A DNA stretch of 64,000 nt from Malacoraja senta (taxonomy: Eukaryota), in contig CM075991.1 of assembly GCA_038087875.1 (NCBI GenBank), positions 9,302,001 through 9,366,000 of the forward strand, read 5' to 3'. The notes under the pieces were generated by a model. That model worked only from the letters and a program-made list of their open reading frames with translations, ran no database searches and had not been told where the DNA came from. Below are positions 6,568-46,386 of the stretch, piece after piece; the stretch's first letter is position 1; every line of letters starts with the position of its first letter. The position numbers and the translations under genes were made by a program.

Positions 6568-7040
6568 AGGGCCTGTCCCACTTGGCCGTCATTTGCGCCT
6601 CATTTACGCGTCATATGTAAAATAAGTTGACGCGTTGTGACGCACGGGTAGCGTGTGGGTAGCGCGGACGGGCGCATGGAGAGGCGTGGAGGAGTGTGGA
6701 GTTGCGCGCGATATCGCGCGGCGCTCCAGGATTTCGTGATGCACGAGATCCTCGCCCGCCACCTGCGTGACGTATCGCGTACGCACGCTGACGCATTGGG
6801 TATGCACGCTGATGCATTGACGTCGCACGCTGCGTCCCGACGTCTCACGTGTATCGGGTGGTGACGCATGGTTACGTCACCGTGTGTAACCACGCATCGC
6901 CGCGCGCCGCAGGGTATTCTAATGACGTCACGCGCACCAGACGGCATGATGACGTGTGATTTGCGCGCGATGTTGCATCGACCTATTTTACATATGACGT
7001 GTAAATTTGGCGCAAATGACGGCCAAGTGGGACAGGCCAT
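6568..7040. mobile_element. PIF/Harbinger MITE
   Basis: TIR AGGGCCTGTCCCACTTGGCCGTCATTTGCGCC; TSD TTA/TTA; CpG-rich interior. Confidence 0.9.
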
Positions 7041-7445
7041 TTACAGTACATCCCTCGTCCTACTTGATGGTAGTGTTTATATCATTGGTGCGGCCTGGCT
7101 GAGTTACAACAAATTTCCTACCTGATCTTTGGTCTCCCTGTAGACTAACTGGGTGAATCAGTTAATTCTAAACTGCCTGACCGCTCTACTCTTTAGACTT
7201 ACGACTTTAGAAATACAGCATACAAACAGGTCCTTCGGCCCACTGAGTCCAGCAATCGCCCCGTACACTAGCACTACCCTACATACTAGGGATAATTTAC
7301 AATTTACAGAAGCCAATTATCCTACAAACCTTTGCGTCTCTGGAGTGTGGGAGGAAAACGGAGAACCCTGAGAACGTACCAACTCCATATAGACAGCACC
7401 TGTAGTCAGGATCGAACCTGGGTCTCTGGCACTCCCAGGCAGTAA

Positions 7446-7684
7446 AGGGCCTGTCCCACTTTCACGACCTAATTCACGATCTTTTTTACTCGTGGACATT
7501 TTTCATCAGGCTAGAAAAACGCCCCGACCTAATTGATGCCACAAGTACCTACGACTAGCATCACGACCTACGTACGACCTACCTACGACCTCCTACGACC
7601 TTGTGACGACCATGCTGCGAGTATGAGTCAAGGGCAAACTCGGCAGAGGTCGTGAATTAGGTCGTGAAAGTGGGACAGGGCCCT
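7446..7684. mobile_element. PIF/Harbinger MITE in an HE1 SINE
   Basis: TIR AGGGCCTGTCCCACTTTCACGACCTAATTCACGA; TAA/TTA flanks. Confidence 0.88.
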
Positions 7685-7845
7685 TTACTCTACCGCTGCA
7701 CCACTGCGCCACCCCTCGTTCTCAGCTTTGGATTGAGCTCCTGGGTTTACGGTTAGAGTGAATGAATTGACTGTTGCAATAACTCCTTTCTCTCAAATAT
7801 TATTTAATCCTGAATTGTCATATAGTCATTAGAGTAAAGAACCTG

Positions 7846-7985
7846 GGGGTGGAAGATTGCAACCTTGACGTGGTCCACCCTGTTTCGACTAATGCAATCA
7901 ACCTGACGTGCACAAACAAGATCAAACAGAACAAGTTGTCCTACAACTTTAGGCTGTGCACGCCATACGCAAGAAGAACAAGAAG
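7846..7985 (+). mobile_element. HDV-like ribozyme-headed short retroposon, copy 1
   Basis: GGGGTGG-AA-GATTGCA-ACC-TTGACGT-GGT-CCACCCT-GTTTCGA-CTAA-TGCAATC (P1/P2/P3 nested pseudoknot), then GACGTGCACA..TGTGCACGCC hairpin and GAA tail. TSD agtaaagaacct/agtaaagagcct (one mismatch). L3 carries a C>G change relative to the other copies. Confidence 0.85.
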
Positions 7986-10444: not shown

Positions 10445-10843
10445 GATACATAGATACATAGAAAATAGGTGCAGGAGTAGGCCATTCGGCCCTTCGAGCC
10501 TGCACCGCCATTCAATATGATCATGGCTGATCATCCAACTCAGTATCCCGTACCTGCCTTCTCTCCATACCCCCTGATCCCTTTAGCCACAAGGGCCACA
10601 TCTAACTCCCTCTTAAATATAGCCAATGAACTGGCGTCAACTACCCTCTGTGGCAGAGAGTTCCAGAGATTCACCACTCTCTGTGTGAAAAAGTTTTTCC
10701 TCATCTCGGTCTTAAAGGATTTCCCCCTTATCCTTAAGCTGTGACCCCTTGTCCTGGACTTCCCCAACATCGGGAACAATCTTCCTGCATCTAGCCTGTC
10801 CAACCCCATAAGAATTTTGTACGTTTCTTTTAGATCCCCTCTC
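10445..10843 (-). mobile_element. CR1 LINE 3' fragment
   Basis: ORF 10540-10863 with CR1 C-terminus and tail. Confidence 0.9.
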
Positions 10844-11275
10844 AGATACTGATGTGAGTTCACAGCAGAACTTGGAGCAGGCTGGTGGGGGATGATTATG
10901 GATGGTTAACCAGGAAGGTGTCAAGAGATCCAGGTCTGCTGGAACTGCAGCAATTTACAGAGAACATCGTGGCAATAACACAGAACCGAGCAAATATTGA
11001 ATAAACCAAAAAACATTTTTTGGAATTTGAGAACTGTGTTCTGACTCATTAACCCTCAGCCAACATTGCTGAATTTGTTTGTACAGTCAGTATCATATGT
11101 GGGGCTTACTGGGTATAGATTGTCTGCGAGAATCCTACATTAGAACAGGAATTACCCATCAAAGTTAAAGAAATTGAGAATATGATGTTATGAAAAACCA
11201 GGGAGAATCCAATCACCTCTTTGATTCCCCTTCTATTAACATCCCAGAGGTGGCATCTCTGAGATTAACATCTCA

Positions 11276-12070
11276 GAGTGTGGCACAGTGGTATAGAGCT
11301 GCTACCTCACAGCACCAGAGACTCAGGTTCGATCCTGTCAACAGGTACTGTCTGTACAGAGTTTGTCTATTCTCCCTGTGACTACGTGGATTTTCTCCAG
11401 GTGCTCCAGTTTCCTCCCTTATTCGAAAGACATGGAGGTTTGTAGGTTAATTTGCTTCTGTAAAATGTCCCTAGTGTGTAGGACATAGAACTAGTGTAAA
11501 GGTGATCCCTTCTTCTTCTTCTTGCGTATGGCGTGCACAGCCTAAAGTTGTAGGACAACTTGTTCTATTTGATCTTATTTGATTGTGCACGCCAGGTTGA
11601 TTGCATTCGTCGAAACAAGGCGGACCACGTGAAGGTTGCAATCTCCCACCCCAGGTGATCCCTAGTCAACACAGACTCGGTGAAGGGCCTATTTCCATGC
11701 TACATCTGTAATGAAAAGTCTAAAGTCCCCTCGCTTGCAGCTCTTCCCCTCGTGAAACACACACTCTCAGGACTGGCACAGAGGCACAGCAGTAGAGTTG
11801 CTGCCTTGCGGTGCCTGAGACTCGGGTTCGATCCTGACAACGGGTGCTGCTGTCTGTACAGAGTTTGCACGTTCTCCCTGTGACCATGTGGGTTTTCCCC
11901 GGGTGCTCCGGTTTCCTCCCACACTCCAAAGACGTACAGGTTTGTAGGTTAATTGGCTCCGATAAAAGTTGTAAGTTGCCCTAGTGTGTAGGGTAGTGGT
12001 GTCGCAAGTCGGCCCATTCTCGGTGGGCTGTGGGCCTGTTTCCACGCTGTATCTCTAAACTAAACTGACG
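11276..12070 (+). mobile_element. Two tandem HE1-type V-SINEs (the first hosts ribozyme-SINE copy 2)
   Basis: A/B boxes at ~11280-11335 and ~11782-11835; (TAAAC)n tail. Confidence 0.85.
11511..11652 (-). mobile_element. HDV-like ribozyme-headed short retroposon, copy 2 (inserted in an HE1 SINE)
   Basis: Reverse complement reads GGGGTGG-GA-GATTGCA-ACC-TTCACGT-GGT-CCGCCTT-GTTTCGA-CGAA-TGCAATC...(GAA)n. Perfect 11-bp TSD aggtgatccct at 11500-11510 and 11653-11663. Confidence 0.9.
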
Positions 12071-12804
12071 TAAACTCAACATCATCCAGGTCAAACCAAC
12101 CTGCTTTAAAGAAAAGCAGCGAAAACAACGTGTTAAAAAAAATTGCCTCGAAAGTCTCCCTAAAACTTTCCCCTGCTCACCTTGAAGCTATTAACCATCA
12201 AGATAAATGCACATATCTTAGGAATGCCATGGATTTAATTGAAATCATAAAATGCTAGTAACACACAACTGGTCAGGCAGTATCTACGGAGAGAGAGAAA
12301 GAGAGAAAAGTTTCAAATCGATGTCCTTTCATCTGAAGCGATGATCCGAATCTTTGCGAGGAAAGGCCATCGACTTGAAACATTGACACTGTTTCTCTCT
12401 CTGCAGATACTGCCCGACCTGCTGCCACGCGGACCAGCTAGAAAGTACACCGCCGTTTCACGTCCAGTCTTCTCCAACGCCGTCTGCCAAACCCGCGACT
12501 TCTGCCACCACGGCACACTTCATCCCAGCACGGAAGGATGTCAACTGTCCTTCGCTGTCACTGGGTCTAAGTCCTGGAGCACGCTCCCCAACAACACACT
12601 GGGAACGACCTTCACCCTTCGTTCTACGGCGGTTCAAAGAGACGCCTCTTCGCCACCTACCCAAGACCGATTGGGAACGACCGATAAACATTGACCATGC
12701 CAATGACATCCACGTCCCATAAAAAAAATATATTTCCATTATTTTATTTTTGTCCTGTTTTCAGAATGGCTTAATTATACTCCTTTCCCTTATGACCATA
12801 TCAG

Positions 12805-13176
12805 AATAGTGAAAGGCTTGGATAGAGTGGATGTGGGGAGGATGTTTCCATTGTTGGCAGTGTCTAGGACTAGAAGTCATAGCCTCATAATTAAAGGACG
12901 TTCTTTTAGGAAGGAGATGAGGAGGAATTTCTTTAGTCAGAGGGTGGTGAATCTGTGGAATTCTTTGCCACAGAAGGCTGTAGAGGCCAAGTCAGTGGAT
13001 ATTTTTAAGGTAGAGATAGATAGATTCTTGATTAGTACAGTTGTCAGAGGTTATGGGGAGAAGGCAGGAGAATGGGGTTAGGATGGCGAGATAGATCAGC
13101 CATGAATGAATGGCGGAGTAGACTTGATGGGCCGAATGGCCTAATTCTACTTCGATTCCTCATGACCTTATGACCT
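12805..13176 (+). mobile_element. CR1 LINE 3' fragment (second subfamily)
   Basis: ORF 12809-13081 FFSQRVVNLWNSLP; tail atgggccgaatggcctaattct. Confidence 0.88.
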
Positions 13177-13357
13177 CCTCATCCGCTCCCCACACAATAC
13201 GGGCAATTTGCAGCTACCAATTAACCTACAAAGCCACATGTTTGAGGAAACTGGAGCACAGCAGTGCAGCAGTAGAGTTGCTGCCTTAGAGAACCAGAGA
13301 GCCGGGTTCGATCCTGGCTACGGGTGATGTCCGTATGAATTTGTGCACTTAATTCTA

Positions 13358-13562
13358 CTTGTTCTTGGTTCTTGGTTTCTCGTTCCTCCAAAATATTCCA
13401 AATGGAATTTAAACTGGAGGTGGTGGAGGGAGGACAATCCAGAAAGGGTTTTTGGGAAGAAAGAGCTACCTTAAATTTAGTTGCATCTGGTTGGGTAACT
13501 ATGGTAGGGTGGAGATTATTCCATGCTTTAATTGTGCGGGGCGAAGGACGAATTGCTGTACC
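13358..13562 (-). mobile_element. LINE 3' fragment of another CR1/L2-group family
   Basis: PRTIKAWNNLHP...FKVAL ORF2 C-terminal motif; (AAGAACC)n tail. Confidence 0.6.
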
Positions 13563-14422
13563 CATCTGTCTTGGTAGCTGGAATCACAAATTGGATCTCC
13601 TATTCCTTATGACCTTATGACCTTAATCCCAGGGTGCGCTTTGATGAAAAATATAGCTAGCCAATATTTTGTAGCGCTGTGCTTTACATTTCACAAATTC
13701 CCTAATTTTTTGCGCCCCCCCCCGTTCTAAACTGATAAAGAAACTCCGATTGCAATTAAAACTCAAACGTCAATTAGGATTTAATTGAAAAATCAGTTGG
13801 CATATCTAATTAAAGATGACAGAGACTGGAAGATGCACATGAATACTTAGATTAGCAATGAAAAGTTAATAGCTCATAAAACATCATTAATTGCCAGATT
13901 ACGCTGAAGAAGTATATTGTTATTGAAGTGTAATTCACTGATTCTGAGAGAGATATTTAAAAATGCAATATTCTTTTGAATTCAAGCCGCAAGCACTTTG
14001 GGTTGGGGGATGGCGGGTATATCTGCATTGCATCTAATCTATTAGATCTTCAGTGATGCTACAATGAATTTTGCCTTGGATGCTGCTGTAGGACACCTTC
14101 TCCTGCGATTGTGTTTTGGTGGGAGCAGGGTTCAACCACTAATGGTAATAAAAAGGAAAATATGTAAAACCTGACATTATGGTTTTATTTCTCTGGTAGG
14201 GCGGAGGCTAAGGGGAGCAGTAGGTAAAATTATAAGGCCTCGGCGAGGCCAGCAGCATTATCAAGGACCAGTCTCACCCCGGTCACTCCCTCTTCTCCCC
14301 TCTCCCATCAGGCAATAGGTACAGAGCTTTGAGAGTGCGTGCTGCCGGATTCAGGGACAGTTTCTTCCCAGCTGTTATCAGACAACTAAACGGTCCTCTC
14401 ATCAGCTAGAGTGCGGTCCAGA

Positions 14423-14912
14423 TATGGTTGCCAACGTTCTCACGCCCAAATAAGGGACAAAAGATCAAAATACGGGATAAATTCCCGACGGCAATTCGTT
14501 GCCCGACTCGACCGTGGCTGGGTGAATGATGAGTTGGGCTGCACACAAAGCCCAGCAGGCGGGCCAGCTGAGGAGTTGTGGTGGCCGGCGCCCCATCCAA
14601 CTCATGAACCGATGATCGGCCACGAGAAGGAGGGGGTGGTGGTGGTGTCGGCGGTAAGCGAAGGTCCGAAGGTGGGACAGCTGGCCGGGCTGCCGACCGA
14701 CGGGGCCGCGGGCGAGGCGCTGCTGCTGCTGCACTCCATGGGCTGCACTATGTCGGGTGAGGTGGGGCCGGACGCGGCGCTCCGACCCAGACAGTCCCCT
14801 CGACCCGAGTAGTAGCAGTCAAATATGGGACAAGGGCGGTCCCGTATGGGACAAACCAATTTAGCCCAATGTACGGGATGTCCCGGCTAATATGGAACAG
14901 TTGACCACCCTA
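14423..14912. mobile_element. Non-autonomous hAT (Blackjack-like) DNA transposon
   Basis: Ends TATGGTTGCCAAC...GTTGACCACCCTA (TAGGGT-type TIR), subterminal ACGGGA/GGGACA repeats, perfect 8-bp TSD ggtccaga (14415-14422, 14913-14920). Confidence 0.88.
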
Positions 14913-16023
14913 GGTCCAGACCACCCATGTACCTCATTGAAGACCTTTGAACTATGTTTATACATGATTTATTGGACTTTATCTTGCACCAATTGTTGTA
15001 CCCTTTATCGTTCATCAGTACACTGTGGACGGCTTGATTGTAAACATGCATAGTCTTTTCTTTGACTGGATAGTACGCAGTAAAAAGCTTCTCACTGTAC
15101 CTCGGTACATGTGACACCAAAAACCCAAACTAAACTAAACTAAAACTGGGGTAGGATGGAGATAAGCAGCAAACAGGTAAACATGGTAGACAGTCACAAC
15201 CTTTTTCCCAGGATGGAAAAATGAAATACAAACTTTAAGGTGAGAGGGGCAAAGTTTGAAAGAGATGTGTGAGGTGAGAGGGTGGTGAGTACTGCTGGAA
15301 CGTGGTATCGAATCAAATGTGATGGTGGCATTTAAAATCTTTTGGATAGGCACATGGATATGCAGATTACGGAGGGATATGTGTTATGTACTGGTAGGTA
15401 AATGATGGTCTTTGCAGCATGTTCAGCACAGATATTGTGGGCTGAGGGTCTTATTCTTATGTAGGAAGGAACTACAGGTGCTGGTTTAAACCGAAGATAG
15501 ACACAAAAAATGCTGGAATAACTCAGCGGGACAGGCAGCATCTCTGGGTGTCGTTTCGGGTCACGACCCTACTTCAGACTGAAGAAGTAAGACTGAAGAC
15601 CCATCCAGAGACGCTGCCTGTCCCGCTGAGTTACTCCAGCGTTTTGTGTCTGTCTTATCCTTGTGCAGCACAAGTTGTGCTGCACTGCTCCATGCTCTAT
15701 ATTCTAAGGTTATCCGATCAAGGAGTGAATGGGAGAGGTGAGAGATTGTGGACATAGTCGAAATAAAACGTAGATAAAATAAAGGAACAGCAGCGAGATC
15801 TGCCGATGTTGGAATCTTGAGTAAAACGCAAAGTGCATTCAGGCAGCATGTGTGGAGGGAATGGTTAAGTGGTGTTTCGGGTCAGCACCCTTCTTCAGAC
15901 GAAGAAAGGGTCCCGACACAAAATGTCACCCATAGAGATAAAGCTGAGAAAATGTTGCAGAGATTGGTAGATTTGTATTGACTGATTTAAGGAACAGGGA
16001 ACAGGGGGCTTATGAAGTTATCA

Positions 16024-16317
16024 ATAGACAATAGACAATAGGTGCAGGAGTTGCCCATTCGGCCCTTCGAGCCAGCACCGCCATTCAATGTGATCATGGC
16101 TGATCATCCCCAATCAGTACCCCGTTCCTGCCTTCTCCCCATATCCCCTGACTCCGCTATCTTTAAGAGCCCTATCTAGCTCTCTCTTGAAAGTATCCAG
16201 AGAACCTGCCTCCACCGCCCTCCGAGGCAGAAAATTCCACAGACTCACCACTCTCTGTGAGAAAAAGTGTTTCCTCGTCTCTGTTCTAAATGGCTTACCC
16301 CTTATTTTTAAACTGTG
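16024..16317 (-). mobile_element. CR1 LINE 3' fragment
   Basis: ORF 16114-16326; (CAATAGA)n tail. Confidence 0.88.
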
Positions 16318-16821
16318 GATAGCCATAATTCTAAAGCTCCACCAAGTTTAGAATTTCTACAAACATCGATGTGGAATTGTTGCCATGGACACTGTTGGTG
16401 GCCGAACTGTGCTGAGCAGGCGGGAAGAGATGAAGGACACTTATATAAATGGAAGTGTTTTAAGTACACTATAATCAAAGCACAAAGTGACCTTAATCAA
16501 AAGGCCATCTCATTTCCTTCTGAACCTTCCACACTTCTCCTCCTCACTCATCCCCCCACGAGCACCTGAAGTGTATTGTAATTTATTTATTTCGTTTTAT
16601 CTGATTTTCTTCCTTGCAAATTGGCCACCATGCTTACTGCGTTAGGATCATGCTACCACGCAAATGTTTATTGCTAATAAAGCAATTTAAGACATTCTGC
16701 AGTTGTGAAATGTGCTTGTATTTCTCTCCTGCATCTTCCAATTTCATACTACCGTCGTAAACGGTCGCCGCTGACTACTGAAGCGGCGACGCGGTGGCGC
16801 AGCGGTACGCCTGCAGCCTTC

Positions 16822-17028
16822 AGGGCCTGTCCCACTTTCACGACCTCTGCCGAGTTTGCCCTTGACTCATACTCGCAGCATGGTCGTCACGAGGTCGTGG
16901 GAGGTCGTAGCAGGCCGTGATGCTAGTCGTAGGTACTCGTGGCATCAAGTGGGTCGGGGCGTTTTTTCTGGCCTGATGAAAAATGTCCACAAGGTCATGA
17001 ATTAGGTCGTGAAAGTGGGACAGGCCCT
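16822..17028. mobile_element. PIF/Harbinger MITE in an HE1 SINE head
   Basis: Same family as 7446 and 37915; sits at gcctt(a)|cagcgccag. Confidence 0.88.
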
Positions 17029-17602
17029 TTACAGCGCCAGAGATCCGGGTTAGATTCCTACTACGGGTGCTGTCTGTGCGGAGTTTGTACGTTCTCCCCG
17101 TGACCACGTGGGTTTTCCCTGGGTGCTCCAGATTCCTCCCACACTCCAAAAATGTAAGTTAATTGGCCTGGCCTAACTGTAGATTGGCCCTGATATGTGT
17201 GCAGGATAGTGTTAGCGTGCGGGGATCGCTGGTTGGGACTCGCTGGGCCGAAGGGCCTATTTCCAGGCTGTATCTCCAAAATAAAAAAAAGGCATCTAAA
17301 ATCACTGCCTTCCCAGGCAGCTCCTTCAATCCATCTCCTGGACAAGGTCATTATTTTAAAAGTGTCTATTTATTGTTGATTTAATGAGAATAAATTGGTT
17401 CTCCTTGATGTGATGGTGATATCGAATAGGCTCAGTACTGGGGAACGCTTCTGTTGACATTTCATTGAGAATGACTGCATATTACAGAGTAACATCCTAC
17501 GCTTGTTCATGTTTGGGATCAAATACTCTTCAGGGAGTACATTTAGTTGGGTAACTCTAACAGTTCGCTAGCACAAGCATTACATGCTGAATGGTCACTT
17601 TC

Positions 17603-17981
17603 TACATATAGAAACATAGAAACATAGAAAATAGGTGCAGGAGTAGGCCATTCGGCCCTTCGAGCCATTCAATATGATCATGGCTGATCATCCAACTCAG
17701 TATCCTGTACCTGCCTTCTCTCCATACCCCCCTGATCCCATTAGCCACAAGGGCCACATCTAACTCACTCTTAAATATAGCCAATGAACTGGCCTCAACT
17801 ACATTCTGTGGCAGAGAATTCCACAGATTCACCACTCTCTGTGTGAAAAATGTTTTTCTCATCTCGGTCCTAAAAGATTTCCCCCTTATCCTTAAACTGT
17901 GACCCCTTGTCCTGGACTTCCCCAACATCGGGAACAATCTTCCTGCATCTAGCCTGTCCAACCCCTGAAGAATTTTGTAAG
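17603..17981 (-). mobile_element. CR1 LINE 3' fragment
   Basis: ORF 17602-18000 with CR1 C-terminus. Confidence 0.9.
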
Positions 17982-18173
17982 TAAATATGTAGAGGTACAT
18001 AAAAGTATGAGAGGCATAGATATGGTAGACAGGCAGAACCCTTTTCCCGGGATGATAAAATCAAATATCAGAGGGCATAGCTATAAGGTGAGAGGGGCAA
18101 AGTTGAAAGGAGATCTGCGGGGCAAGTTTTTTTGCCTAGAGAGTGGTGGGTGATTTGGAACTTTACAGCTTTG

Positions 18174-18496
18174 GGCGACACGGTGGTGCAGCGGTGGAGT
18201 TGCTGCCTTACAAAGCTTGCAGCGCCAGAGACCCGGGTTCGATCCTGACTACGGGTGCTGCCTGTACGGAGTTTGTACGTTCTCCCCGTGTCCGCCATGG
18301 GTTTTCTCCGAGATCCACGGTTTCCTTCCACACTCCAAAGACGTACAGATTTGTAGGTTAATCCACTTGGTATAAGTGTAAATTGTCCCTCGTGTGTGTA
18401 GGGTAGTGTTAATGTGCGGGGATCGCTGGTCGGTGCAGACTCGGTGGGCCGAAGGGACTGTTTCCGCGCTGTATCTCTAAACTAGACTGAACTAAA
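18174..18496 (+). mobile_element. HE1-type V-SINE, full length
   Basis: gggcgacacggtggtgcagcgg...ggttcgatcc...gggccgaagggactgtttccgcgctgtatctctaaacta. Confidence 0.9.
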
Positions 18497-19889
18497 CACT
18501 GCTCGGGGTGATGGTGGAGGCAGATATGATAGTGGCATTTAAGATACTTTGGGGTAGGCACCTTTCTAGGCATGGAGTGGAGGGATATGGATCATGCGCA
18601 GGCAGATAAGGATTGGTATTAAAATATAATAAAAATGAATCGCCAATGCTGGCTTATACCAAAGATGAACACAAAGCGCTGGAGTAACATCTGGGGGTCA
18701 GGCAGAATCTCTGGAGAAAACAGGTAGGTGACGTTTCTGGTCCGGACCCTGCTTCAGACTAGATTAGGATTGATGCAAAATGCTGCAGTAACTCAATGGG
18801 TCAGACAATATCTCTGGAGAAAAGGAATAGGTGACGTTTCGGGTCGAGAACCTCCTTCAGACTGAGAGTCAGGGGAGAGGGAAACCAGAGGTGTGAAAAG
18901 GAAGAGAGAACAAAAGAATGAAAGGTATGAAAAAACAAATCAGAGTCTGCAAGGATGATCAAGGGATGGTGGAGCCCACAATGGTCCATTGTTGGCTGTT
19001 GAAGAGGTGATAGCGAGTGGGTACGAATGGTGAAACTAAACAGGACTGGGCTCCTCCACCTTTCCTTGATCAACCTTGCCGGCCTTTCTTTTTTCTTTTC
19101 GTACCTTTCAATCTTTTATTCTCTGTACCTTACATATCTCTAGCTTCCCACTCCTCTGACTCTCAGTCTGAAGAAGGGTCTCGACTCGAAACGTCACCTA
19201 TTCCTTTTCTCCAGAGATGCCGCCTGTCCCGCTGAGTTACTCCAGCATTTTGTGTCTGTCTTCAGTGTAACCAGCATCTGAAGTTCCTTCAGCCATGATC
19301 ATATTGAATGGCGGTGCAGGCTCGAAGGGCCGAATGGCCTACTCCTGCACCTATTTTCTATGTATCTATGTATGTATAAGGATTGGTCTTGGATGCATGT
19401 TCAGCAGCGGCTTATGGGCCGAAGGGCCTTATCCTGTGCTGCATTGGCCTACGGGTGTCAGGGGTTCTGGGGAGAAGGCAGGAGAATGGGGTTAGGAGGG
19501 AGATAGATCAGCCATGATCGACTTGATGGGCCGAATGGCCTAATTCTGCTCCTATCACTTATGAACTGTTCTACCTTCTGTTCTATGTATATTTGCAATA
19601 CTTTCAGAACAGATACATGTACGAAAGCACTGTTTAAGAAAGAACTGCAGATGCTGGAAAAATCGAAGGTAGACAAAAATGCTGGAGAAACTCAGCGGGT
19701 GAGGCAGCATCTATGGAGAGAAGGAATAGGTGACGTTTCGGGTCAAGACCCTTCTTCTCAAGCCGAAACGTCACCTATTCCTTTTTCTCCAGCATTTTTG
19801 TCTACCTCATTTGGCTAAATCATTGATATTTGCAACAGGCAGGAGATCAGCCAAAGTAACCATGGTGTTCTCTCAACTTTCCTTTGCAG

Positions 19890-20114
19890 ACTCCTCTTCC
19901 CATGAACATCACAGCCTTTTACAACTACGAGCAGCCGCTGGTTGGGTACTGCAAAGCACACCAGACTCTTCATATACACAAGCGCTTCGAGGCGCCCCTG
20001 CAGGAAGAGGCACAGCCCAGCAGCGTCGAGCTGCCCGCCAACCGCAATGTCATCAGCACAGTCGCTCGCTCCGCCATCCCCAACATACATCTCGAACCCC
20101 CTCACACGCCGTAG
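19890..20114 (+). CDS. Terminal coding exon of an unidentified host gene (TPLPMNITAFYNYEQPLVGYCKAHQ...HLEPPHTP*)
   Basis: Polypyrimidine tract plus AG acceptor (ctctcaactttcctttgcag, ends 19889). 74 codons with strong C/G third-position bias, TAG stop, followed by repeat-free UTR-like sequence with AATAAA at 20372. Confidence 0.7.
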   Translation, partial: TPLPMNITAFYNYEQPLVGYCKAHQTLHIHKRFEAPLQEEAQPSSVELPANRNVISTVARSAIPNIHLEPPHTP

Positions 20115-22434
20115 GAGGGCACCCCAACCCCAGCGGCTCACTTTGTGTGCGGCCAGCTCCAGACGGGAAGGAAGTAAAAATACAGGATAGCAACAAACAT
20201 TTGAAAGTTCTTTCCTGCGTTTAAAATTTAAAAAAATGGACATCCCCGAACAATTGGTAGCCGTTGAAAACTCAACGGCCAAACTATCCGAAATTTGCCG
20301 TTCTTCTGATTTTCTGTGCTTTGGTATTTGACGATGTAAATATAAGACTCTGCTTATCATGTTCTTAAGAAAATAAAGTAAAAACTGTAAAGGAACGGGT
20401 TCAACTCTTTTCGACGTCATGTTTTTCCACCACACATTCAGGTCCCCAGCCAGGAGAATGTGGTTATTAAAAGGAATCGAGTTTACATCAGCGAAGTTAC
20501 TTTTCTTTGGAGTGTCAGTCGTACCTGCGGTGAACAACCATATCAACTGAAATGCTGAATTTGTGACAAATACTCAAGAGTTTACAGGTGAATGACTTTG
20601 GCACAGTGGGGGAGGTGGGTCTGAATATTTACAGTCACAAAGAATTGGTGCGCGAAGGAACTTCAGACGCTAGTTTACACCGAAGGTAGTCACAACATGT
20701 TAGAGTAACTCAGCAGGTCAGGTAACATCCCTGGGGAAAAGGAAGAGGTGAAGTTTCGGGTCAAGACCCTTCATCAGACTGGGAGGCAGGGAGGGGGTGA
20801 AACGAGAGGTGCGGAACGGTACAGAACAGAGCAGAGCCTGCAGCGATGACTCAGGAAAGGTTGAGCCCACAATGGTCCATTGTTGGCTGGGGACGAGGTG
20901 AAATCGAAGGAATCCAAACAGCGAAAAGAGGGTCAGGGTGGGGGAGGGGTGGAGAAGGAGGGAATGCTAGGGTTAATTAAAGGTGGAGAAATGACTATTC
21001 ATGCCGCTGGGTTGTAAGCTGCCCGAGTGAAATATGAAGTTCTTTTGTTTACGTACATATTGTATAAAATTGTATAATGTATAAAATTGGCTTTGGTATA
21101 CTTACATCCTTCTGTATTTTCATCATAAGAAGTATATATGATATGGTCAGCATTCCCTGGATTCACAGAAGGTTGCAGATGCTCAAATCTGTATTAAAAT
21201 GTGGAGCAACACATTGGAGTTTAAGAGAGAAGAACTTGAATTAAAATATAAGGTCCTCTGAGATTGTGATAGGGTTGGCTTTGGGAGAATACTCCACTTG
21301 GGTCGATACCCTGCATTGGGATCTATCATAGTCGGAGAGTGATACAGTGTGGAAACAGGCCCTTCGGCCCAACTTGCCCACACTGGCCGACATGTCCCAG
21401 CTAAGCTAGTCCCACCTGCCTGCATTTGGTCCATATCCCTCCAAACCTGTGCTATCCATGTACCTGTCTAACTGTTTCTTAAAATTTCAGATAGTGCCAG
21501 CCTCAACTACCTTCTCTTATTCCATACACCCACTACCCTTTGTGTGAAAAAGTTACCCCTCAGATTCGTAATAAATCTTTTCCCCTTCACCTTTTTTAAA
21601 CCTATGTCCTCTGGTCCTCAATTCTAATGCAGAGACTCGACCCGATTATGGGCAGCATGGTAGCACAGCGGTAGAGTTGCTGCCTTACAGCGCCAGAGAA
21701 ACCCTGGTTCGATCCTGACTACAGGTGCTGTCTGTGTGGAGTTTGCAGTGTACGGGGATCGCTGGTCGACGAGGACTCGGTGGGCCAAAGGGCCTGTTTC
21801 CGTACTGTATCTCTAAACTGAACTAAACTAACAGCTATCACTTTGCCTCCACAGATGCTGCTGGACCTGCTAAGTTCTTCCAGGTTTGTTTTTTTCCACT
21901 GGATGTTCTCCTGCTTCTATTTTCATCCATTTTGATTCAAGTTGAGTCTATTGTCATTTGCAGTAATACAGTGATATACAAGTACAATGAAAAAGCTTGC
22001 CCGCAGCAGCATCACAGTCACATAGACAACAGCCAGAAACGTAAATTATAAACAAATTGCACATGAATTTTACGAGGCAGTTAAAATAAAACGACCGGGC
22101 AAAAAATAAGACATTAGTGAAAAGACATTCATTCATCATTGCCAGTTCTAATGGTGAATCTTTCTTTACTATACTAGAGCAGAGCCTAATACACATTGTA
22201 GGAATTCCATCCCTTTATCCAATTTCTTCAGTTCAGTCAATATTGGAATTACTGAAGTCCCCCATGTTTTTATCTTACGTCATAGTCAGGGAGTGATACA
22301 GCATGGAATCAGGTCCTTCGGCCCAACTTGCCCACACCGGCCAACATGTCCCAGATGCACTAGTCCCACCTGCCTGCATTTGGCCCATTTCCCACTAAGC
22401 CTGTCCTATCCAAGTACCTGTCTAACTGTTGCTT

Positions 22435-22570
22435 CTTCTTCTTCCGTGTGGCGTGCACAGCCTAAAGTTGTTGGACAACTTGTTCTATTCGATCTTCCGT
22501 TTGTGCACGTCGAGTTGATTGCATTAGTCGAAACAGGGCGGACCACGTGAAGGTTGCAATCTTTCACCCC
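22435..22570 (-). mobile_element. HDV-like ribozyme-headed short retroposon, copy 3 (inserted in a CR1 3' end)
   Basis: Reverse complement GGGGTGA-AA-GATTGCA-ACC-TTCACGT-GGT-CCGCCCT-GTTTCGA-CTAA-TGCAATC...(GAA)n. 12-bp TSD taactgttgctt at 22423-22434 and 22571-22582. Confidence 0.9.
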
Positions 22571-23429
22571 TAACTGTTGCTTAAACGTTGGGATAGTCCC
22601 AACCCTAACTACATCCTTTGGCAGCTTGTTCCATACACCCACCACCCTTTGTGTGAAAAAGTTACCCCTCAGATTCCTATTAAATATTTTCCCCTTCACC
22701 TTAAACCTATGTCCTCTGGTCCTCGATTTACCTACTCTGGGCAAGAGACTCTGTGCATCTACCCGATCTATTCCTCTCATGATTTGATTATGTGCATCCC
22801 TTATTCTTTTAATTTGTCTTCACTTTTGTTCTTCCATCTATTTTTCACTATTATATTCTGTAGACACCACTCATTAGCATCATTTATCCTTTATAAATGT
22901 TTATCGTCCTCTAAATTAATTCTGATTCTGTTTTCATTATCAGCGCATTCTCTTTTCCCAACTGGCATCATTTTATCCCTAATAACTACTGTTGATCCAC
23001 CTGCCTTATTTAGAGTCACAGGGAGAGGCAGCTCAGAAACAGGACCTCTGGGCCCACTAAATTCACACCAACCGACCATAAGCTTACCTTAATCCCATTT
23101 TTAACGTCTCTCCATGTGCTTATCAACTCTCCACAGATTCTGCACTCATCTGAAATTTATAGGGGCCAAGTAATCTAGCAACCAGCATGGCTTTGGGATT
23201 TGGGAGGAAACCTGAGCACCTGGACCAAACCCACGTGGCAACAGGAAGAATGTGGATCAGAAGAACGTGTACACTCCCTGTAGACACCGTTGGAGGTCAA
23301 GGTTGAATCTGGCTCTCCAGAACTGTGAGGCAGCAGTTTATTTAATTTTAGTTTAGTTTAGAGATAGAGCGCGGAAACAGGACCTTCGTTCCGCTGAGTC
23401 CGCGCCGACCAACGATCCCCGCACACTAA

Positions 23430-38150: not shown

Positions 38151-39059
38151 TAAGGGTGCTGGGTTAGTTGGTCGGCGCGGATTCGGTGGGCTGAAAGGCC
38201 TGTTTCCACACTGTAGATCTAAACTAAACTAAACTAAACTAAGGTGTGCAAAAATAGGTATTCAATAGGAAGAACGCACCAAATTAAACAAATAGAACTA
38301 TTGTCATTTAGCTCCCATTAAAGTGTATGCATTTTAATGATCAATTACTTGTCATTAAATTACACACTGTGTAAATAATTTGAAGTTATATCCCTATAAT
38401 TAAAAGTGGCTATCTCTCTCAGACTTGTGCTCACATCAATAAGCAGATCATTTGGTCATATAATTTCATTGCTGTCCACAATTCAGCAATCACAAATATA
38501 AAATGCCCAGGAATGGCCTGGTCATGGAAGGTGCTTTAAGAAATGCTACCTCCTTTATTTCTTTATCTAAGTATCAATTATCTCAAGTTGATAGAGATAC
38601 TTAAGACATAGGTTCAAGGTGAAGGGGGAAAGGGGTGACTTTTTCACACAAAGGGTGGTGGGTGTATGGAATGAGCTGCCGGAGGAGGTAGTTGAGGCAG
38701 GGACTATCCCAACATTTAAGAAGCAGTTAGACAGGTACATGGATAGGAAAGGTTTAGAGGGATATGGACCAAATGCAGGCAGGTGAGACTAGTGTTGATG
38801 GGACATGTTGGTCGGTGTGAGGAAGTTAGGCCGAAAGGCTTGTTTCCACGCTGTATAACTCTCCATGACTCTATCTATCCCAAAAAAGTGTTCCTGAACA
38901 GAGTCACTGAAAAGTGTTATTAGTTTAGTTTAGACACAAAAAGCTGGAGTAACTCAGCGGGACAGGCATCATCTTTGGCGAGAAGGAATGGGTGACGTTT
39001 AGGGTCGAGAACCTTCTTCAGACTGGTTAGGGATAAGGGAAATAAGAGATATAGATGAT

Positions 39060-39113
39060 GGGGTGGGAGATTGCAACCTTCACGTGGTCCGCCCTGTTTC
39101 GACGAATGCAATC
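39060..39113 (+). ncRNA. Minimal HDV-like (CPEB3-type) self-cleaving ribozyme motif, best-preserved copy
   Basis: P1 GGGGUGG/CCGCCCU with G1-U wobble, P2 GAUUGCA/UGCAAUC, P3 ACC/GGU, L3 UUCACGU, P4 reduced to U-UUCG-A, J4/2 CGAA carrying the putative catalytic C. Confidence 0.8.
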
Positions 39114-39169
39114 AACCTGGCGTGCACAATCAAATAAGATCAAATAGAACAAGTTGTCCTACAACTTTA

Positions 39170-39476
39170 AGGGCCTGTCCCACTGTACGAGGTAATTCAA
39201 GAGTTCTCCCGAGTTTCCCCTGATTCGAACTTGAGGAATTACGGTAATAGCCGTTCGTAGGTACTCGGGGCTCTCGTGGACATTTTTCACAGTGCTGAAA
39301 AAACGTCACGAGTTACCGCGTTTCCTGAGAACCTGCCGTTAGCGTTACGAGCCGCTACGAGACATCCACGAGCTCCGACGTAGCCGCTACATACATTCTA
39401 CGTACTTACCACGAGTTTGATTTTTGTTTAAACTCGGGAGAGCTCTTGAATTACCTCGTACAGTGGGACAGGCCCT
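39170..39476. mobile_element. PIF/Harbinger MITE inserted in ribozyme-SINE copy 4
   Basis: TIR AGGGCCTGTCCCACTGTACGAGGTAATTCAAGAG. Exact TTA TSD, confirmed by the empty site acaacTTTAggctg in copies 1-3. Confidence 0.93.
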
Positions 39477-39834
39477 TTAGGCTGTGCACGCCATACGCAA
39501 GAAGAGAAGAAGATATAGATGATGATGTAGAGAGATAAAGAACAATGAATGAAAGATATGAAAAAAGTTACGATGATAAAGGAAACAGGCCATTGTTAGC
39601 TGTTTAGTTTAGATTAGTTTATTATTGTCACATACACAGTACGGTGAAAAGTTTTTTTGCATGCTGTCCAGTCAAAGAAAAGATTATGCATGGTTACAAT
39701 CAAGCCGTCCACAGTGTTCAGATAAAAGATAAAGCCTGACCTGCTGTGTATTCTCAGAATTTCCTCTTATTATTGTCAATTTTTGCTCTGACATCATTGA
39801 TACTTTGTGCTGTATCTTCGATCTGTGAAGCTAT

Positions 39835-46024: not shown

Positions 46025-46386
46025 AATAATAATAATAATAATGGATGGGATTTATATAGCGCCTTTCTAATACTCAAGGCGCTTTACATCGCATTATTCA
46101 TTCACTCCTCAGTCACACTCGGTGGTGGTGAGCTACTTCTGTAGCCACAGCTGCCCTGGGGCAGACTGACGGAAGCGTGGCTGCTAATCTGCGCCTACGG
46201 CCCCTCAGACCACCACCAATCACTCACACACATTCACACACATTCACACACATTCACACGCAGGCAAAGGTGGGTGAAGTGTCTTGCCCAAGGACACAAC
46301 GACAGTATGCACTCCAAGCGGGATTCGAACCGGCTACCTTCCGGTTGCCAGCCGAACACTTAGCCCATTGCGCCATCTGTCGTCCC
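46025..46386 (-). mobile_element. tRNA-derived CORE-type SINE with L2-like tail (resembles teleost AFC-type SINEs)
   Basis: Minus strand: A box TGGCGCAATGG, B box GGTTCGAATCC, CORE-like GTGTCCTTGGGCAAGACACTTCACCC, tail GTAAAGCGCCTTGAG..AAAGGCGCTATATAAA, (TTA)n end; splits a CR1 3' tail. Confidence 0.8.

What the first reader, a model, noticed from the sequence alone, without database searches (positions are those of the whole stretch)
39060..39510. A ~140-bp SINE-like retroposon family headed by a minimal HDV/CPEB3-like ribozyme (4 copies in 64 kb)
Seen in sequence: four dispersed copies (7846+, 11652-, 22570-, 39060+) begin GGGGTGG-RA-GATTGCA-ACC-TTCACGT-GGT-CCRCCCT-GT-TTCG-A-CKAA-TGCAATC. 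This gives a 7-bp P1 with a G1-U wobble, a 7-bp P2, a 3-bp P3, loop L3 UUCACGU, a P4 shrunk to U(UUCG)A, and J4/2 C-K-A-A. Established: this is the nested double-pseudoknot topology of HDV-family ribozymes; the L3 matches that of mammalian CPEB3 as I recall it, and such ribozymes process the 5' ends of R2, RTE and Ingi/L1Tc retrotransposons. The copies have no tRNA/5S/7SL Pol III boxes, end in (GAA)n and carry 11-13 bp TSDs. Inference: a promoterless SINE that cuts itself out of host read-through transcripts and is copied by a LINE RT. If this density holds genome-wide, the genome has a very large number of latent self-cleavage sites. I do not know of such a family described in chondrichthyans, but I cannot search.
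Basis: partly seen in the sequence, partly recalled or inferred. Interest (0 to 1): 0.95.

Follow-up and report, generated by a model that had tools for sequence, protein, structure and literature searches.

The report
Ribozyme-headed SINE family, thousands of copies
A 140-base mobile DNA family begins with a small RNA motif of the hepatitis-delta/CPEB3 self-cutting type that most likely trims its own front end, a known retrotransposon trick seen here in a very small and abundant form.

Summary
Four ~140-bp copies lie at 7846+, 11652-, 22570- and 39060+. Each has target-site duplications and a (GAA)n tail. The 39060 copy is split by a 307-bp MITE.

The family has about 8,000-9,500 copies in this 1.94-Gb genome. 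That is roughly 1 per 200 kb, so the window's density does not hold genome-wide.

The first 54 nt fit every sequence-level hallmark of an HDV-like ribozyme of the CPEB3 type, with P4 reduced to 5 nt. Rfam's CPEB3 model scores the family below threshold (15.4 bits against 35). The same genome holds sister families that pass it (43.7-64.2 bits). One heads a 3.1-kb RTE-like LINE with a (GAA)n tail, the likely reverse-transcriptase donor.

Across these families P1, P2, P3 and P4 covary while the core loops stay fixed. Two covariance models built without this family find exactly the four window copies.

In 61 of 74 copies with a detectable duplication the element starts within -1 to +2 nt of G1, the predicted cleavage site.

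Self-cleavage, read-through transcription and the LINE partnership remain inferred, because no raw RNA reads were available. The mechanism is a known kind (R2 SIDEs, NARTc, RTE). The family itself, and its closeness to the mammalian CPEB3 ribozyme, may be new.

The parts
39049..39059 (.). 5' target-site duplication (atatagatgat) of the 39060 copy. Its partner is at 39513-39523.
   Evidence: Read.
39060..39113 (+). Ribozyme head, identical to my 138-base family reference string (itself this copy read across the inserted MITE). P1 39060-66 with 39089-95 (G1-U). J1/2 39067-68. P2 39069-75 with 39107-13. P3 39076-78 with 39086-88. L3 39079-85 (UUCACGU). J1/4 GU 39096-97. 5-nt linker in place of P4 39098-39102. 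J4/2 CGAA 39103-06, with the presumed catalytic C at 39103.
   Evidence: R1 gives 25.9 bits and R2 30.3 bits.
39114..39169 (+). SINE body, family positions 55-110. Holds the 5' arm of a long-range stem (39119-28) and the inner hairpin AAGTTGT-CCT-ACAACTT (39151-67).
   Evidence: Fold of an uninterrupted copy.
39170..39476 (.). 307-bp element with terminal inverted repeats (AGGGCCTGTCCCACTG.../...CAGTGGGACAGGCCCT), inserted into the SINE. TTA duplication at 39167-69 and 39477-79. Not part of the family.
   Evidence: Read. BLAST break.
39480..39512 (+). SINE 3' end: 3' arm of the long-range stem (39483-92), the motif ATACGC, and the (GAA)n-like tail.
7846..7984 (+). Copy of the subfamily with A32 and CTAA. 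Ribozyme at 7846-7899. L3 C22 is changed to G, which would break P1.1. Target-site duplication GTAAAGARCCT.
   Evidence: R1 25.1 bits, R2 28.7 bits.
11510..11652 (-). Near-consensus copy. Ribozyme at 11599-11652. One P1 change gives a G-U pair. Target-site duplication GGGATCACCT.
   Evidence: (99.3% to the family reference). R1 22.0 bits, R2 27.2 bits.
22433..22570 (-). Copy of the CTAA / ...CGG-linker subfamily. Ribozyme at 22517-22570. G7 is changed to A, one P1 mismatch. Target-site duplication GCAACAGTTA. Inserted in the 3' part of a CR1-like LINE.
   Evidence: R1 24.5 bits, R2 33.5 bits.

Best explanation
This is a ~140-bp non-autonomous non-LTR retroposon family, called SINE-A here, with about 8,000-9,500 copies.

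Its first 54 nt encode an HDV-like self-cleaving ribozyme of the CPEB3 type in which P4 is reduced to a 5-nt linker.

Inferred mechanism:
1. A copy is transcribed as part of a longer host or neighbouring transcript. It has no Pol III-type head.
2. The ribozyme folds into the nested double pseudoknot and cuts just 5' of G1. The RNA then begins exactly at the element's first base.
3. The 3' half, made of a long-range stem, an inner hairpin, a short ...ACG... motif and (GAA)n, is used by the endonuclease and reverse transcriptase of an RTE-like LINE for target-primed reverse transcription.
4. The likely donor is the 3.1-kb family F1 of this genome, which has its own CPEB3-type ribozyme head and a (GAA)n tail.
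5. Insertion gives 10-13-bp target-site duplications.

Shown here: the family, its limits, the fold's sequence hallmarks, covariation across sister families, and the existence of the LINE.

Inferred: catalysis, read-through transcription, and which LINE supplies the enzyme.
For: Fold hallmarks, seen in the sequence:
- 7-bp P1 starting with G1-U.
- 7-bp P2 pseudoknot.
- 3-bp P3.
- 7-nt L3 UUCACGU.
- J1/4 GU.
- J4/2 CGAA or CUAA.

Chance control: my descriptor hit once in 150 dinucleotide shuffles of 64 kb read on both strands. It hit two of the four window copies.

Sister families: Rfam RF00622 run on the whole genome gave 60 matches, 39 over the gathering score and the best at 64.2 bits. Six fetched examples rescored at 43.7-64.2 bits. 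One of them is a second SINE-like family with the same 5-nt P4 replacement.

Cross-family alignment A1, 24 sequences:
- 93.5% of cells pair, against 36-45% when partners are slid.
- 18 of 26 pairs change on both sides, against 2-5 when slid.
- P2, which the Rfam model does not contain, has 6 of 7 pairs changed on both sides and 96.9% paired.

Models built from the 20 non-SINE-A sequences find exactly the four window copies:
- R1 (P1+P3+P4): 22.0-25.9 bits, next best 7.8.
- R2 (P2+P3+P4): 27.2-33.5 bits, next best 14.9.

5' end: of 86 copies sampled by a mid-element word, 74 had a detectable target-site duplication. The duplication ends at G1 in 34, at +1 in 17, at +2 in 5 and at -1 in 5.

Subfamilies: four subfamily majority sequences differ in the head only at position 8 (J1/2), position 32 (G/A opposite U5, which stays paired) and position 45 (second base of J4/2). 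They differ at a dozen or more places downstream.

The LINE, family F1:
- A ribozyme at the very 5' end, one 940-aa frame and a (GAA)n tail.
- Exo_endo_phos at 33 bits and RVT_1 at 113 bits.
- An 11-bp target-site duplication.
- 213 copies of its 3' end, at least 100 of them exact.
- Its terminus GACACGAAAAGAAGAAG resembles CACACGAAAGAAGAAG, as read by eye in many copies of one SINE-A subfamily. The aligned window copy of that subfamily reads CACACGGAAGAAGAAG.

Relatives of this LINE on metagenome contigs carry the same kind of ribozyme upstream of the frame in 8 of 80 loci. Many of the 80 lack a 5' end.

Literature:
- P4 is dispensable, and a natural ribozyme with 5 nt in its place is known (PMC3774820, passages).
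- Promoterless RTEs with HDV-like ribozymes, and SINEs that use them, are reviewed in PMC6765202, section 11 (passages).
Against: - SINE-A itself fails Rfam's curated threshold. The 39060 copy scores 15.4 bits (E 0.077) against 35. The 11652 copy gets only 12.1 bits, to another HDV family.
- The nested MFE fold is P1+P3, but it is no more stable than shuffles (z +0.92).
- Within the family there is essentially no covariation. There was 1 double change in 1336 pair cells. A genome-wide look for that compensated pair found 8 copies with the first change and none with the second.
- No RNA evidence. All runs found are contigs, so neither cleavage products nor read-through transcripts were seen.
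- F1's helices differ from SINE-A's. The shared 3' sequence is only about 8 nt plus the repeat, so the partnership is weakly based.
- The descriptor and the helix parsing were written after I had seen the sequence.
Confidence: 0.72

Rival explanations
1. The head is a relic. It descends from a LINE ribozyme but no longer cleaves, since P4 is lost. It would now serve as an internal promoter or as a protein- or RT-binding 5' structure, and the fixed 5' end would come from transcription initiation, as proposed for the dual Pr77/L1TcRz system of trypanosomes.
For: - SINE-A scores below the Rfam threshold.
- The nested fold is not unusually stable.
- A fixed 5' end is also what a defined start site would give.
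- A DNA segment that is both promoter and ribozyme is described for L1Tc/NARTc (PMC3383444, abstract).
Against: - Every position that is conserved across the sister families is kept in the SINE-A reference, and all 17 helix pairs are kept.
- Subfamily differences avoid or preserve pairing.
- P4-less natural HDV-like ribozymes are reported active or known (PMC3774820, passages).
- The start coincides with the one base that the fold predicts.
- No promoter was tested, so this reading has no support of its own.
Confidence: 0.15
2. The ribozyme reading is right, but the enzyme comes from another LINE: an unseen relative with a matching 3' end, or the abundant CR1/L2-like elements. F1 would not be the donor.
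For: - Only about 8 nt plus (GAA)n are shared with F1.
- F1 has about 200 3' ends, against roughly 9,000 SINE copies.
- About 160,000 RT candidates exist in the genome, and only 150 were scored.
Against: - F1 is the only LINE seen here with a (GAA)n tail, matching target-site duplication length and the same ribozyme type.
- The one CR1-like copy examined (nested in L031) ends ...ccatgctgtaattattatatgtttatatggtt with no (GAA)n.
- No other candidate was searched for systematically.
Confidence: 0.25
3. The resemblance to an HDV-like fold arose by chance in an ordinary repeat.
For: At the rate seen in shuffles (1 hit in 150 x 64 kb read on both strands), a 1.94-Gb genome would hold a few hundred chance matches to my descriptor.
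Against: - The match sits at base 1 of the element.
- It also shares L3, J1/4 and J4/2 with families that pass Rfam's threshold.
- It is found by two models built without it.
- Its helices covary with those of the sister families.
Confidence: 0.01

Closest known systems
R2 SIDEs and R2/R1 hybrid SIDEs of Drosophila (Eickbush and Eickbush 2012, PMC3414825; abstract read)
   Same: Short non-autonomous non-LTR elements made of a 5' HDV-like ribozyme joined to a LINE-type 3' end. The ribozyme sets the 5' end by cutting a co-transcript, and a LINE supplies target-primed reverse transcription.
   Different: SIDEs are rare and sit in rDNA at the R2 or R1 site. Their ends are recognisably those of the parent LINE. 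SINE-A is dispersed, has thousands of copies and lacks P4. Neither its helices nor most of its 3' half match the candidate LINE F1.
L1Tc / NARTc and the Pr77 hallmark of trypanosomatids (PMC3185411, PMC4035085, PMC3383444; abstracts read)
   Same: An HDV-like ribozyme occupies the first ~77 nt of both a LINE and its truncated non-autonomous partner, and releases the element from long co-transcripts.
   Different: That system is in a protist and belongs to the ingi/L1Tc clade. There the ribozyme DNA is also a promoter, and the non-autonomous element shares its sequence with the LINE. None of this is shown here.
HDV-like ribozymes of RTE and Baggins LINEs (Ruminski et al. 2011, not held here; known to me through the review PMC6765202 section 11 and through PMC3774820, passages)
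   Same: Promoterless LINEs are cut at their exact 5' junction by an HDV-like ribozyme. F1 matches this by architecture: 3.1 kb, one APE+RT frame and a simple-repeat tail. The review also says some SINEs use HDV-like ribozymes.
   Different: I could not see which SINEs or which species that paper lists. F1's clade was not placed on a tree.
Mammalian CPEB3 ribozyme (Rfam RF00622; features from bioRxiv 10.1101/2022.09.22.508989, passages)
   Same: Both have a 7-nt L3 UUCACGU with the ACGU palindrome, a weak P1.1 (one C-G pair plus U-U), J1/4 GU, J4/2 CGAA and a G1-U wobble. Sister families F1-F5 pass the model's threshold. F4 also shares most P2 and P4 letters with its consensus.
   Different: The CPEB3 ribozyme is a single conserved intronic copy with a full P4. 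SINE-A is a repeat with no P4, different helix sequences and 15.4 bits. None of the 60 genome matches lies on the same stretch as a CPEB-type gene.
Minimal HDV-like ribozymes without P4 (abalone example cited in PMC3774820; theta ribozymes, PMC10879173, search listing only)
   Same: P4 is replaced by a few unpaired nucleotides. PMC3774820 says P4 is not required for HDV ribozyme activity, and cites the abalone example only as found.
   Different: Those are single or few-copy sequences, or phage sequences, and are not heads of a high-copy retroposon.

Membership tests
HDV-like self-cleaving ribozymes | P1 of about 7 bp that begins at the cleavage-site nucleotide, with its 3' strand directly after P3 (as stated in PMC3774820) | tested here: met
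   GGGGUGG pairs with CCGCCCU, 7 of 7 including G1-U. The 3' strand abuts P3. Across families, 3 of 7 P1 pairs change on both sides.
HDV-like self-cleaving ribozymes | P2 pairing that crosses P1, giving the nested double pseudoknot | tested here: met
   GAUUGCA pairs with UGCAAUC. Across six families, 6 of 7 pairs change on both sides and 96.9% of cells pair. Model R2, which carries P2, scores the copies at 27.2-33.5 bits.
HDV-like self-cleaving ribozymes | Short P3 closing an L3 loop with the conserved U...G, and a C that pairs with the G of J1/4 (P1.1) | tested here: met
   ACC/GGU closes UUCACGU, and C22 faces G37. P3 covaries in 2 of 3 pairs. The P1.1 pair never changes to another pair type (CG in 22 of 23 rows, unpaired in 1), so it is neither supported nor contradicted.
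HDV-like self-cleaving ribozymes | Catalytic C at the start of J4/2 | tested here: met
   The C of CGAA or CUAA is invariant in alignment A1. It is lost in 4 of the 58 sampled copies (of 86) whose heads have no gap. Its catalytic role was not tested.
HDV-like self-cleaving ribozymes | Mg2+-dependent self-cleavage 5' of G1 | not testable with these tools
   No experiment was possible. No raw RNA reads were on offer.
Rfam RF00622 (CPEB3 ribozyme) | Score at or above the curated gathering score of 35 bits | tested here: not met
   SINE-A gives 0 matches at the gathering score in the window. Its best score is 15.4 bits. Sister families of the same genome score 43.7-64.2 bits.
Rfam RF00622 (CPEB3 ribozyme) | A single conserved copy in an intron of the CPEB3 gene | tested here: not met
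   CEBP_ZZ exons lie at C2259, C2128, C15:8.16 Mb and C17:7.68 Mb. None of the 60 model matches lies on those stretches. Only the best candidates were scored.
SINE / non-autonomous non-LTR retroposon | Dispersed copies with variable target-site duplications, a 3' simple-repeat tail and no coding capacity | tested here: met
   74 of 86 sampled copies have a detectable duplication. Tails are (GAA)n. The element is about 140 bp. Exact words occur 4645-6074 times.
SINE in the strict sense (Pol III head) | A 5' part derived from tRNA, 5S or 7SL with an internal promoter | tested here: not met
   No such Rfam match appears at E up to 10 on two copies. ARAGORN finds no tRNA at any copy.
SIDE (internally deleted LINE) | 5' and 3' ends that are those of an identifiable parent LINE | tested here: not met
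   Against F1, all three helices differ. Only about 8 nt plus the repeat align at the 3' end. Other LINEs were not examined.
RTE-clade LINE (for the candidate partner F1) | About 3.2 kb, a single APE+RT frame, a short 3' UTR ending in a simple repeat | tested here: met
   3.14 kb, a 940-aa frame, Exo_endo_phos and RVT_1, a ~220-nt 3' UTR and (GAA)n. Relatives are 900-1000 aa, many on contigs of about 3.0-3.4 kb. Placement on a tree was not done.

The most novel reading that the evidence does not exclude
The mammalian CPEB3 ribozyme may be a domesticated head of this retrotransposon lineage.

In this genome, whose taxon I could not establish, an RTE-like LINE and several short elements carry heads that pass Rfam's 'mammalian CPEB3 ribozyme' threshold at up to 64 bits. 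In one family (F4) at least 48 of 62 aligned positions equal that model's consensus, including P2 and P4. Relatives of the LINE in other organisms carry the same kind of head.

If the genome is non-mammalian, CPEB3-type ribozymes were mobile in vertebrates before or beside the CPEB3 intron copy. SINE-A would then be their most reduced and most successful form.
Probability: 0.3. Interest if true: 0.8.

Novelty: new member of a known kind. Interest (0 to 1): 0.6.

Why it matters
Three things follow if the ribozyme is active.

1. The genome carries roughly 3,000 intact self-cleavage sites. That figure is 30 of 86 sampled heads applied to about 9,000 copies. Many of these sites presumably lie inside transcribed regions, where a sense-strand copy would cut the host RNA. 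That is a testable cost or regulatory effect.

2. The family shows how little is needed for a successful retroposon that has no promoter of its own: a 54-nt head and about 85 nt of 3' structure.

3. LINE and SINE heads of the CPEB3 type coexist in one genome, and some are close in sequence to the mammalian CPEB3 ribozyme. This gives concrete material for testing where that ribozyme came from. The papers I could read describe it only as mammal-specific and of unknown origin.

Tried and rejected
- **RNA evidence.** The one run search returned only Logan contigs, so starts and ends of RNAs could not be read. The single read-laying run (four DNA-like runs of four coded organisms, 16 kb) was swamped by repeats. 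It showed only that contigs of three of those organisms contain family members at about 88-90% likeness. No empty site was visible.
- **DNA search of the own genome** with 110 bases of the element found nothing. That search skips very common words. Pattern searches worked instead.
- **L031** looked like a 3.4-kb element with the SINE's head and tail. It is a SINE copy with a 5'-truncated CR1-like LINE nested at positions 51-55. It has an AATCA duplication and one outer target-site duplication. It is not the partner LINE.
- **Tail-anchored copies** without an exact head (20 fetched) were mutated or 5'-truncated SINE copies, not LINE ends.
- **Compensated P2 variant.** One sampled copy had the 13A/51U pair. 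Genome-wide, 8 copies carry A13 and all keep A51, so there is no compensated lineage.
- **Nested thermodynamic fold** gave no support (z +0.92).
- **RVT_1 scan** found about 160,000 candidates and could not by itself point to a partner.
- **Proximity to CPEB genes:** none.
- **Earlier notes of this scan** held nothing on this genome or sequence.
- **Papers not held:** Ruminski 2011, Webb 2009 and Webb and Luptak 2011. Whether they list vertebrate SINEs or CPEB3-like retrotransposon heads is therefore open.
Full report
**1. The observation**

A 22-mer from the head and a 28-mer from the tail, searched with up to 3 mismatches, each hit exactly these four sites. None of 100 shuffles gave any hit.

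Element limits read from the sequence:

| Copy | Span | Strand |
|---|---|---|
| 1 | 7846-7984 | + |
| 2 | 11510-11652 | - |
| 3 | 22433-22570 | - |
| 4 | 39060-39512 | + |

Each copy is flanked by a 10-11-bp target-site duplication and ends in a (GAA)n-like run.

The 39060 copy is long only because a 307-bp element with terminal inverted repeats sits inside it. That element spans 39170-39476 and has a TTA duplication. It lies after family position 110.

**2. Size of the family**

The window lies in a 1.94-Gb assembly. Exact words of the family occur there as follows, with 0 matches for every reversed control:

| Word | Count |
|---|---|
| head 22-mer | 4645 |
| middle 19-mer | 6074 |
| tail 25-mer | 2837 |

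- Of 86 distinct copies sampled by the middle word, 42 have the exact head word.
- Of 30 copies sampled by the head word, 22 have the exact middle word.
- These ratios give about 8,300-9,500 copies.
- That is about one copy per 200 kb. The window's four copies in 64 kb are a local excess, not the genome's density.
- 4 of the 90 fetched stretches were duplicates of another stretch. These are segmental duplications, not separate insertions.

**3. The fold**

The family reference reads:

GGGGUGG-GA-GAUUGCA-ACC-UUCACGU-GGU-CCGCCCU-GU-UUCGA-CGAA-UGCAAUC

The parts are:
- P1: 7 bp, opening with G1-U.
- P2: 7 bp, crossing P1.
- P3: 3 bp.
- L3: 7 nt.
- P1.1: a possible C22-G37 pair.
- A 5-nt linker where P4 would be.
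- J4/2: CGAA, or CUAA in two subfamilies.

A descriptor I wrote from the general definition of the family hits 39060+ and 11652- in the window. It requires G1-U, a 7-bp P1, P2 of 6-8 bp, a 3-bp P3, L3 of 7-8 nt with C at the third place, a G after P1, and C-N-R-A before the P2 3' strand. The other two copies carry one disabling change each. The descriptor hit once in 150 dinucleotide shuffles of the window. I wrote it after seeing the sequence, which weakens it as a test.

**4. Rfam**

- At the gathering score the window has no match to any family.
- With permissive settings on 131 bases, the two best families are both HDV-type. CPEB3_ribozyme scores 15.4 bits (E 0.077, threshold 35) and HDV-F-prausnitzii scores 14.4 bits.
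- On the 11652 copy only HDV-F-prausnitzii appears, at 12.1 bits.
- By Rfam's own rule the family is therefore not a member of RF00622.
- No tRNA, 5S or 7SL likeness appeared in either scan. ARAGORN finds no tRNA at the copies.

**5. Sister families in the same genome**

RF00622 run over the whole genome gave 60 matches. 39 were over the threshold and the best scored 64.2 bits. Only 59 of a rough 102,000 first-look candidates were scored. I fetched twenty. They fall into five groups:

| Group | Description |
|---|---|
| F1 (9 copies) | Full ribozyme with a long P4, followed at once by an open frame |
| F2 (2 copies) | Another full-P4 form |
| F3 (6 copies) | A ~190-bp element with target-site duplications and an AAGAAG tail; its P4 is again replaced by 5 nt (UUUCA or UUCCA) |
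| F4 (2 copies) | At least 48 of 62 aligned positions equal the model consensus, including P2 and P4 |
| F5 (1 copy) | A single distinct copy |

Six examples rescored at 43.7-64.2 bits.

All groups keep L3 (UUCACGU or a near variant), GU after P1 and C-N-A-A before P2'. Their helices differ.

A core pattern, TTCACGT-N6-CCCTGT, occurs 5776 times against 30 for the control. Of the first 100 listed, 99 are SINE-A and 1 is F3. SINE-A is therefore by far the main carrier of this motif.

**6. Covariation**

In the 24-sequence alignment of all groups (A1), I tested a structure with P1, P2 as a pseudoknot, P3, P1.1 and P4.

| Measure | True structure | Partners slid by 1-3 columns |
|---|---|---|
| Cells paired | 93.5% | 36-45% |
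| Pairs changed on both sides (of 26) | 18 | 2-5 |

The observed values for cells paired and for pairs changed on both sides were reached in 0 of 500 shuffles.

Per helix, the pairs changed on both sides are:
- P1: 3 of 7
- P2: 6 of 7
- P3: 2 of 3
- P4: 7 of 8

P2 is the independent part, because the Rfam model that found these sequences does not contain it.

Caveats:
- There are only about six independent lineages.
- The sequence ends were chosen with a parser that maximised pairing.

**7. Membership by models that never saw the family**

I built two covariance models from the 20 non-SINE-A sequences (A2). Each was run over the whole window with filters off.

| Model | Helices | Scores of the four copies | E-values | Next best hit |
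|---|---|---|---|---|
| R1 | P1+P3+P4 | 22.0-25.9 bits | 1e-4 to 1e-3 | 7.8 bits |
| R2 | P2+P3+P4 | 27.2-33.5 bits | 8e-7 to 4e-5 | 14.9 bits |

Both find exactly the four copies, end to end. The E-values are rough because calibration was shortened.

**8. Within the family**

Copies are young and alike, so they say little about pairing.
- 97.2% of 1336 pair cells are paired, with one double change.
- That double change is not a lineage. 8 genome copies carry the first change and none carries the second.
- Four subfamily majority sequences (26, 20, 13 and 6 copies) differ in the head at only three places. These are position 8 (J1/2), position 32 (G/A opposite U5, still paired) and position 45 (second base of J4/2).
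- The same four differ at a dozen or more places in the next 74 nt. This fits constraint on the source copies but is not significant on its own.
- By strict criteria 30 of 86 sampled heads are intact.
- In the CGAA subfamilies the presumed catalytic C lies in a CpG. It is lost in 4 of the 58 sampled copies (of 86) whose heads have no gap.
- The nested minimum-energy fold is exactly P1 plus P3, but it is no more stable than shuffles (z +0.92).

**9. The 5' end**

Of the 86 sampled copies:
- 6 were set aside as truncated or interrupted.
- 6 showed no target-site duplication.
- 74 had a detectable duplication.

Among those 74, the upstream duplication ends at these offsets from G1:

| Offset from G1 | Copies |
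|---|---|
| 0 | 34 |
| +1 | 17 |
| +2 | 5 |
| -1 | 5 |
| elsewhere (-9 to +6) | 13 |

Positive offsets are mostly cases where the target happens to end in G.

The element therefore begins at the base before which an HDV-like ribozyme cuts. A defined transcription start would give the same picture, so this result is consistent with cleavage rather than proof of it.

**10. The 3' half and the likely partner**

The 3' half folds into a 10-bp long-range stem (GGCGUGCACA with UGUGCACGCC). This stem encloses a 7-bp hairpin and is followed by AUACGC and (GAA)n.

One full F1 copy (L142 + L161) has these features:
- 3.14 kb in length.
- It starts with its ribozyme.
- A single 940-aa frame, with Exo_endo_phos at 33 bits and RVT_1 at 113 bits.
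- A ~220-nt 3' UTR.
- It ends ...GACACGAAAAGAAGAAGAAG.
- It is flanked by an 11-bp duplication.

F1's last 25 bases occur 213 times with up to 2 mismatches, and at least 100 of these are exact. Several lie about 3.1 kb downstream of F1 heads.

F1's terminus resembles CACACGAAAGAAGAAG, as read by eye in many copies of one SINE-A subfamily (the aligned window copy reads CACACGGAAGAAGAAG). It also resembles GACUCGAUAAGAAGAAG of F3. Only about 8 nt plus the repeat are shared, and the heads differ in every helix. SINE-A is therefore not a simple internal deletion of F1. The partnership is an inference.

Relatives of the F1 protein are 900-1000 aa, many on contigs of about 3.0-3.4 kb. The names given by sources come from very different animals, including lancelet, sea urchin, insects, a lizard and a fish. 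This suits an RTE-type element, but no tree was made.

On 80 metagenome contigs that encode relatives, R1 finds a head upstream of the frame in 8. Many of the 80 lack a 5' end. Of the 20 of these contigs that I gave to Rfam, one has a match, and it passes RF00622 at 43.3 bits.

**11. Comparison with what is known**

- The review PMC6765202 (section 11, passages) states that RTE and Baggins elements carry HDV-like ribozymes. It says they lack promoters and are transcribed from introns or from upstream elements. [quoted passage not shown]
- PMC3774820 (passages) states that cleavage at the 5' junction is seen in R4, L1 and RTE. It states that P4 is not required for activity, and that an abalone ribozyme has 5 nt in place of P4.
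- R2 SIDEs (PMC3414825, abstract) and NARTc (PMC3185411 and PMC4035085, abstracts) are non-autonomous elements with such heads.

The mechanism is therefore a known kind.

My searches for such a family in sharks, cartilaginous fish or lamprey, or for a retrotransposon origin of the CPEB3 ribozyme, found nothing relevant. The key primary papers are not in the library. Dfam and Repbase could not be searched. The taxon of the genome was not established.

**12. Verdict**

The family is best filed as a new member of a known kind, a ribozyme-headed non-autonomous non-LTR retroposon. Three things stand out:
- its size, with a 54-nt head lacking P4;
- its copy number;
- its kinship with heads that pass the mammalian CPEB3 model.

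Catalysis, the mode of transcription and the enzyme donor remain to be shown.

Noticed in passing
window 39170-39476: A 307-bp element with ~40-bp terminal inverted repeats (AGGGCCTGTCCCACTGTACGAGG...) and a TTA target duplication, inserted in the SINE copy. It looks like a MITE of the PIF/Harbinger kind; that label is recalled, not tested.
   Followed up: partly
L153, L154, L157-L160 (own genome): A second short family (F3, ~190 bp, AAGAAG tail, target-site duplications) headed by a CPEB3-type ribozyme that also has 5 nt in place of P4. It passes Rfam RF00622 at 43.7 bits. Most copies lack the first G of P1.
   Followed up: partly
L152, L155 (family F4) and L145, L149 (family F2): Copies within each family share only the ribozyme plus about 30 nt downstream and then diverge completely. 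This is odd for elements that are normally truncated at the 5' end. F4 is the closest in sequence to the mammalian CPEB3 consensus.
   Followed up: partly
L031 (G000:C1:20849300-20853100): A SINE-A copy with a 3.25-kb 5'-truncated CR1-like LINE (APE+RT frame of 781 aa) nested at family positions 51-55. It has an AATCA duplication inside one outer target-site duplication.
   Followed up: yes
window 22270-22432 and 22571-22640: The 22570 copy sits inside the 3' part of a CR1-like LINE. The flanks encode the ...VWNKLP... C-terminal motif and the usual 3' end.
   Followed up: no
window 46309-46383 (-): ARAGORN calls a tRNA-Ala (GGC). Whether it is a gene or a tRNA-derived repeat was not examined.
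   Followed up: no
G000:C1 pairs 4268393/4324933, 15821405/15829387, 24789640/24795656: SINE-A copies with identical flanks a few kb to tens of kb apart. These are segmental duplications that inflate copy counts slightly (4 of 90 fetched stretches were duplicates).
   Followed up: partly
window 7000-23000: The stretch is almost entirely repeats. Contigs of four coded organisms pile up on it at depths of 10^5-10^7, with thousands of joints. Only 19816-20349 looks single-copy.
   Followed up: no
L165-L169, L178, L179, L228 (metagenome contigs): Relatives of the RTE-like LINE from other, unnamed organisms carry CPEB3-type heads upstream of their frames. One (L165) passes Rfam RF00622 at 43.3 bits.
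   Followed up: partly
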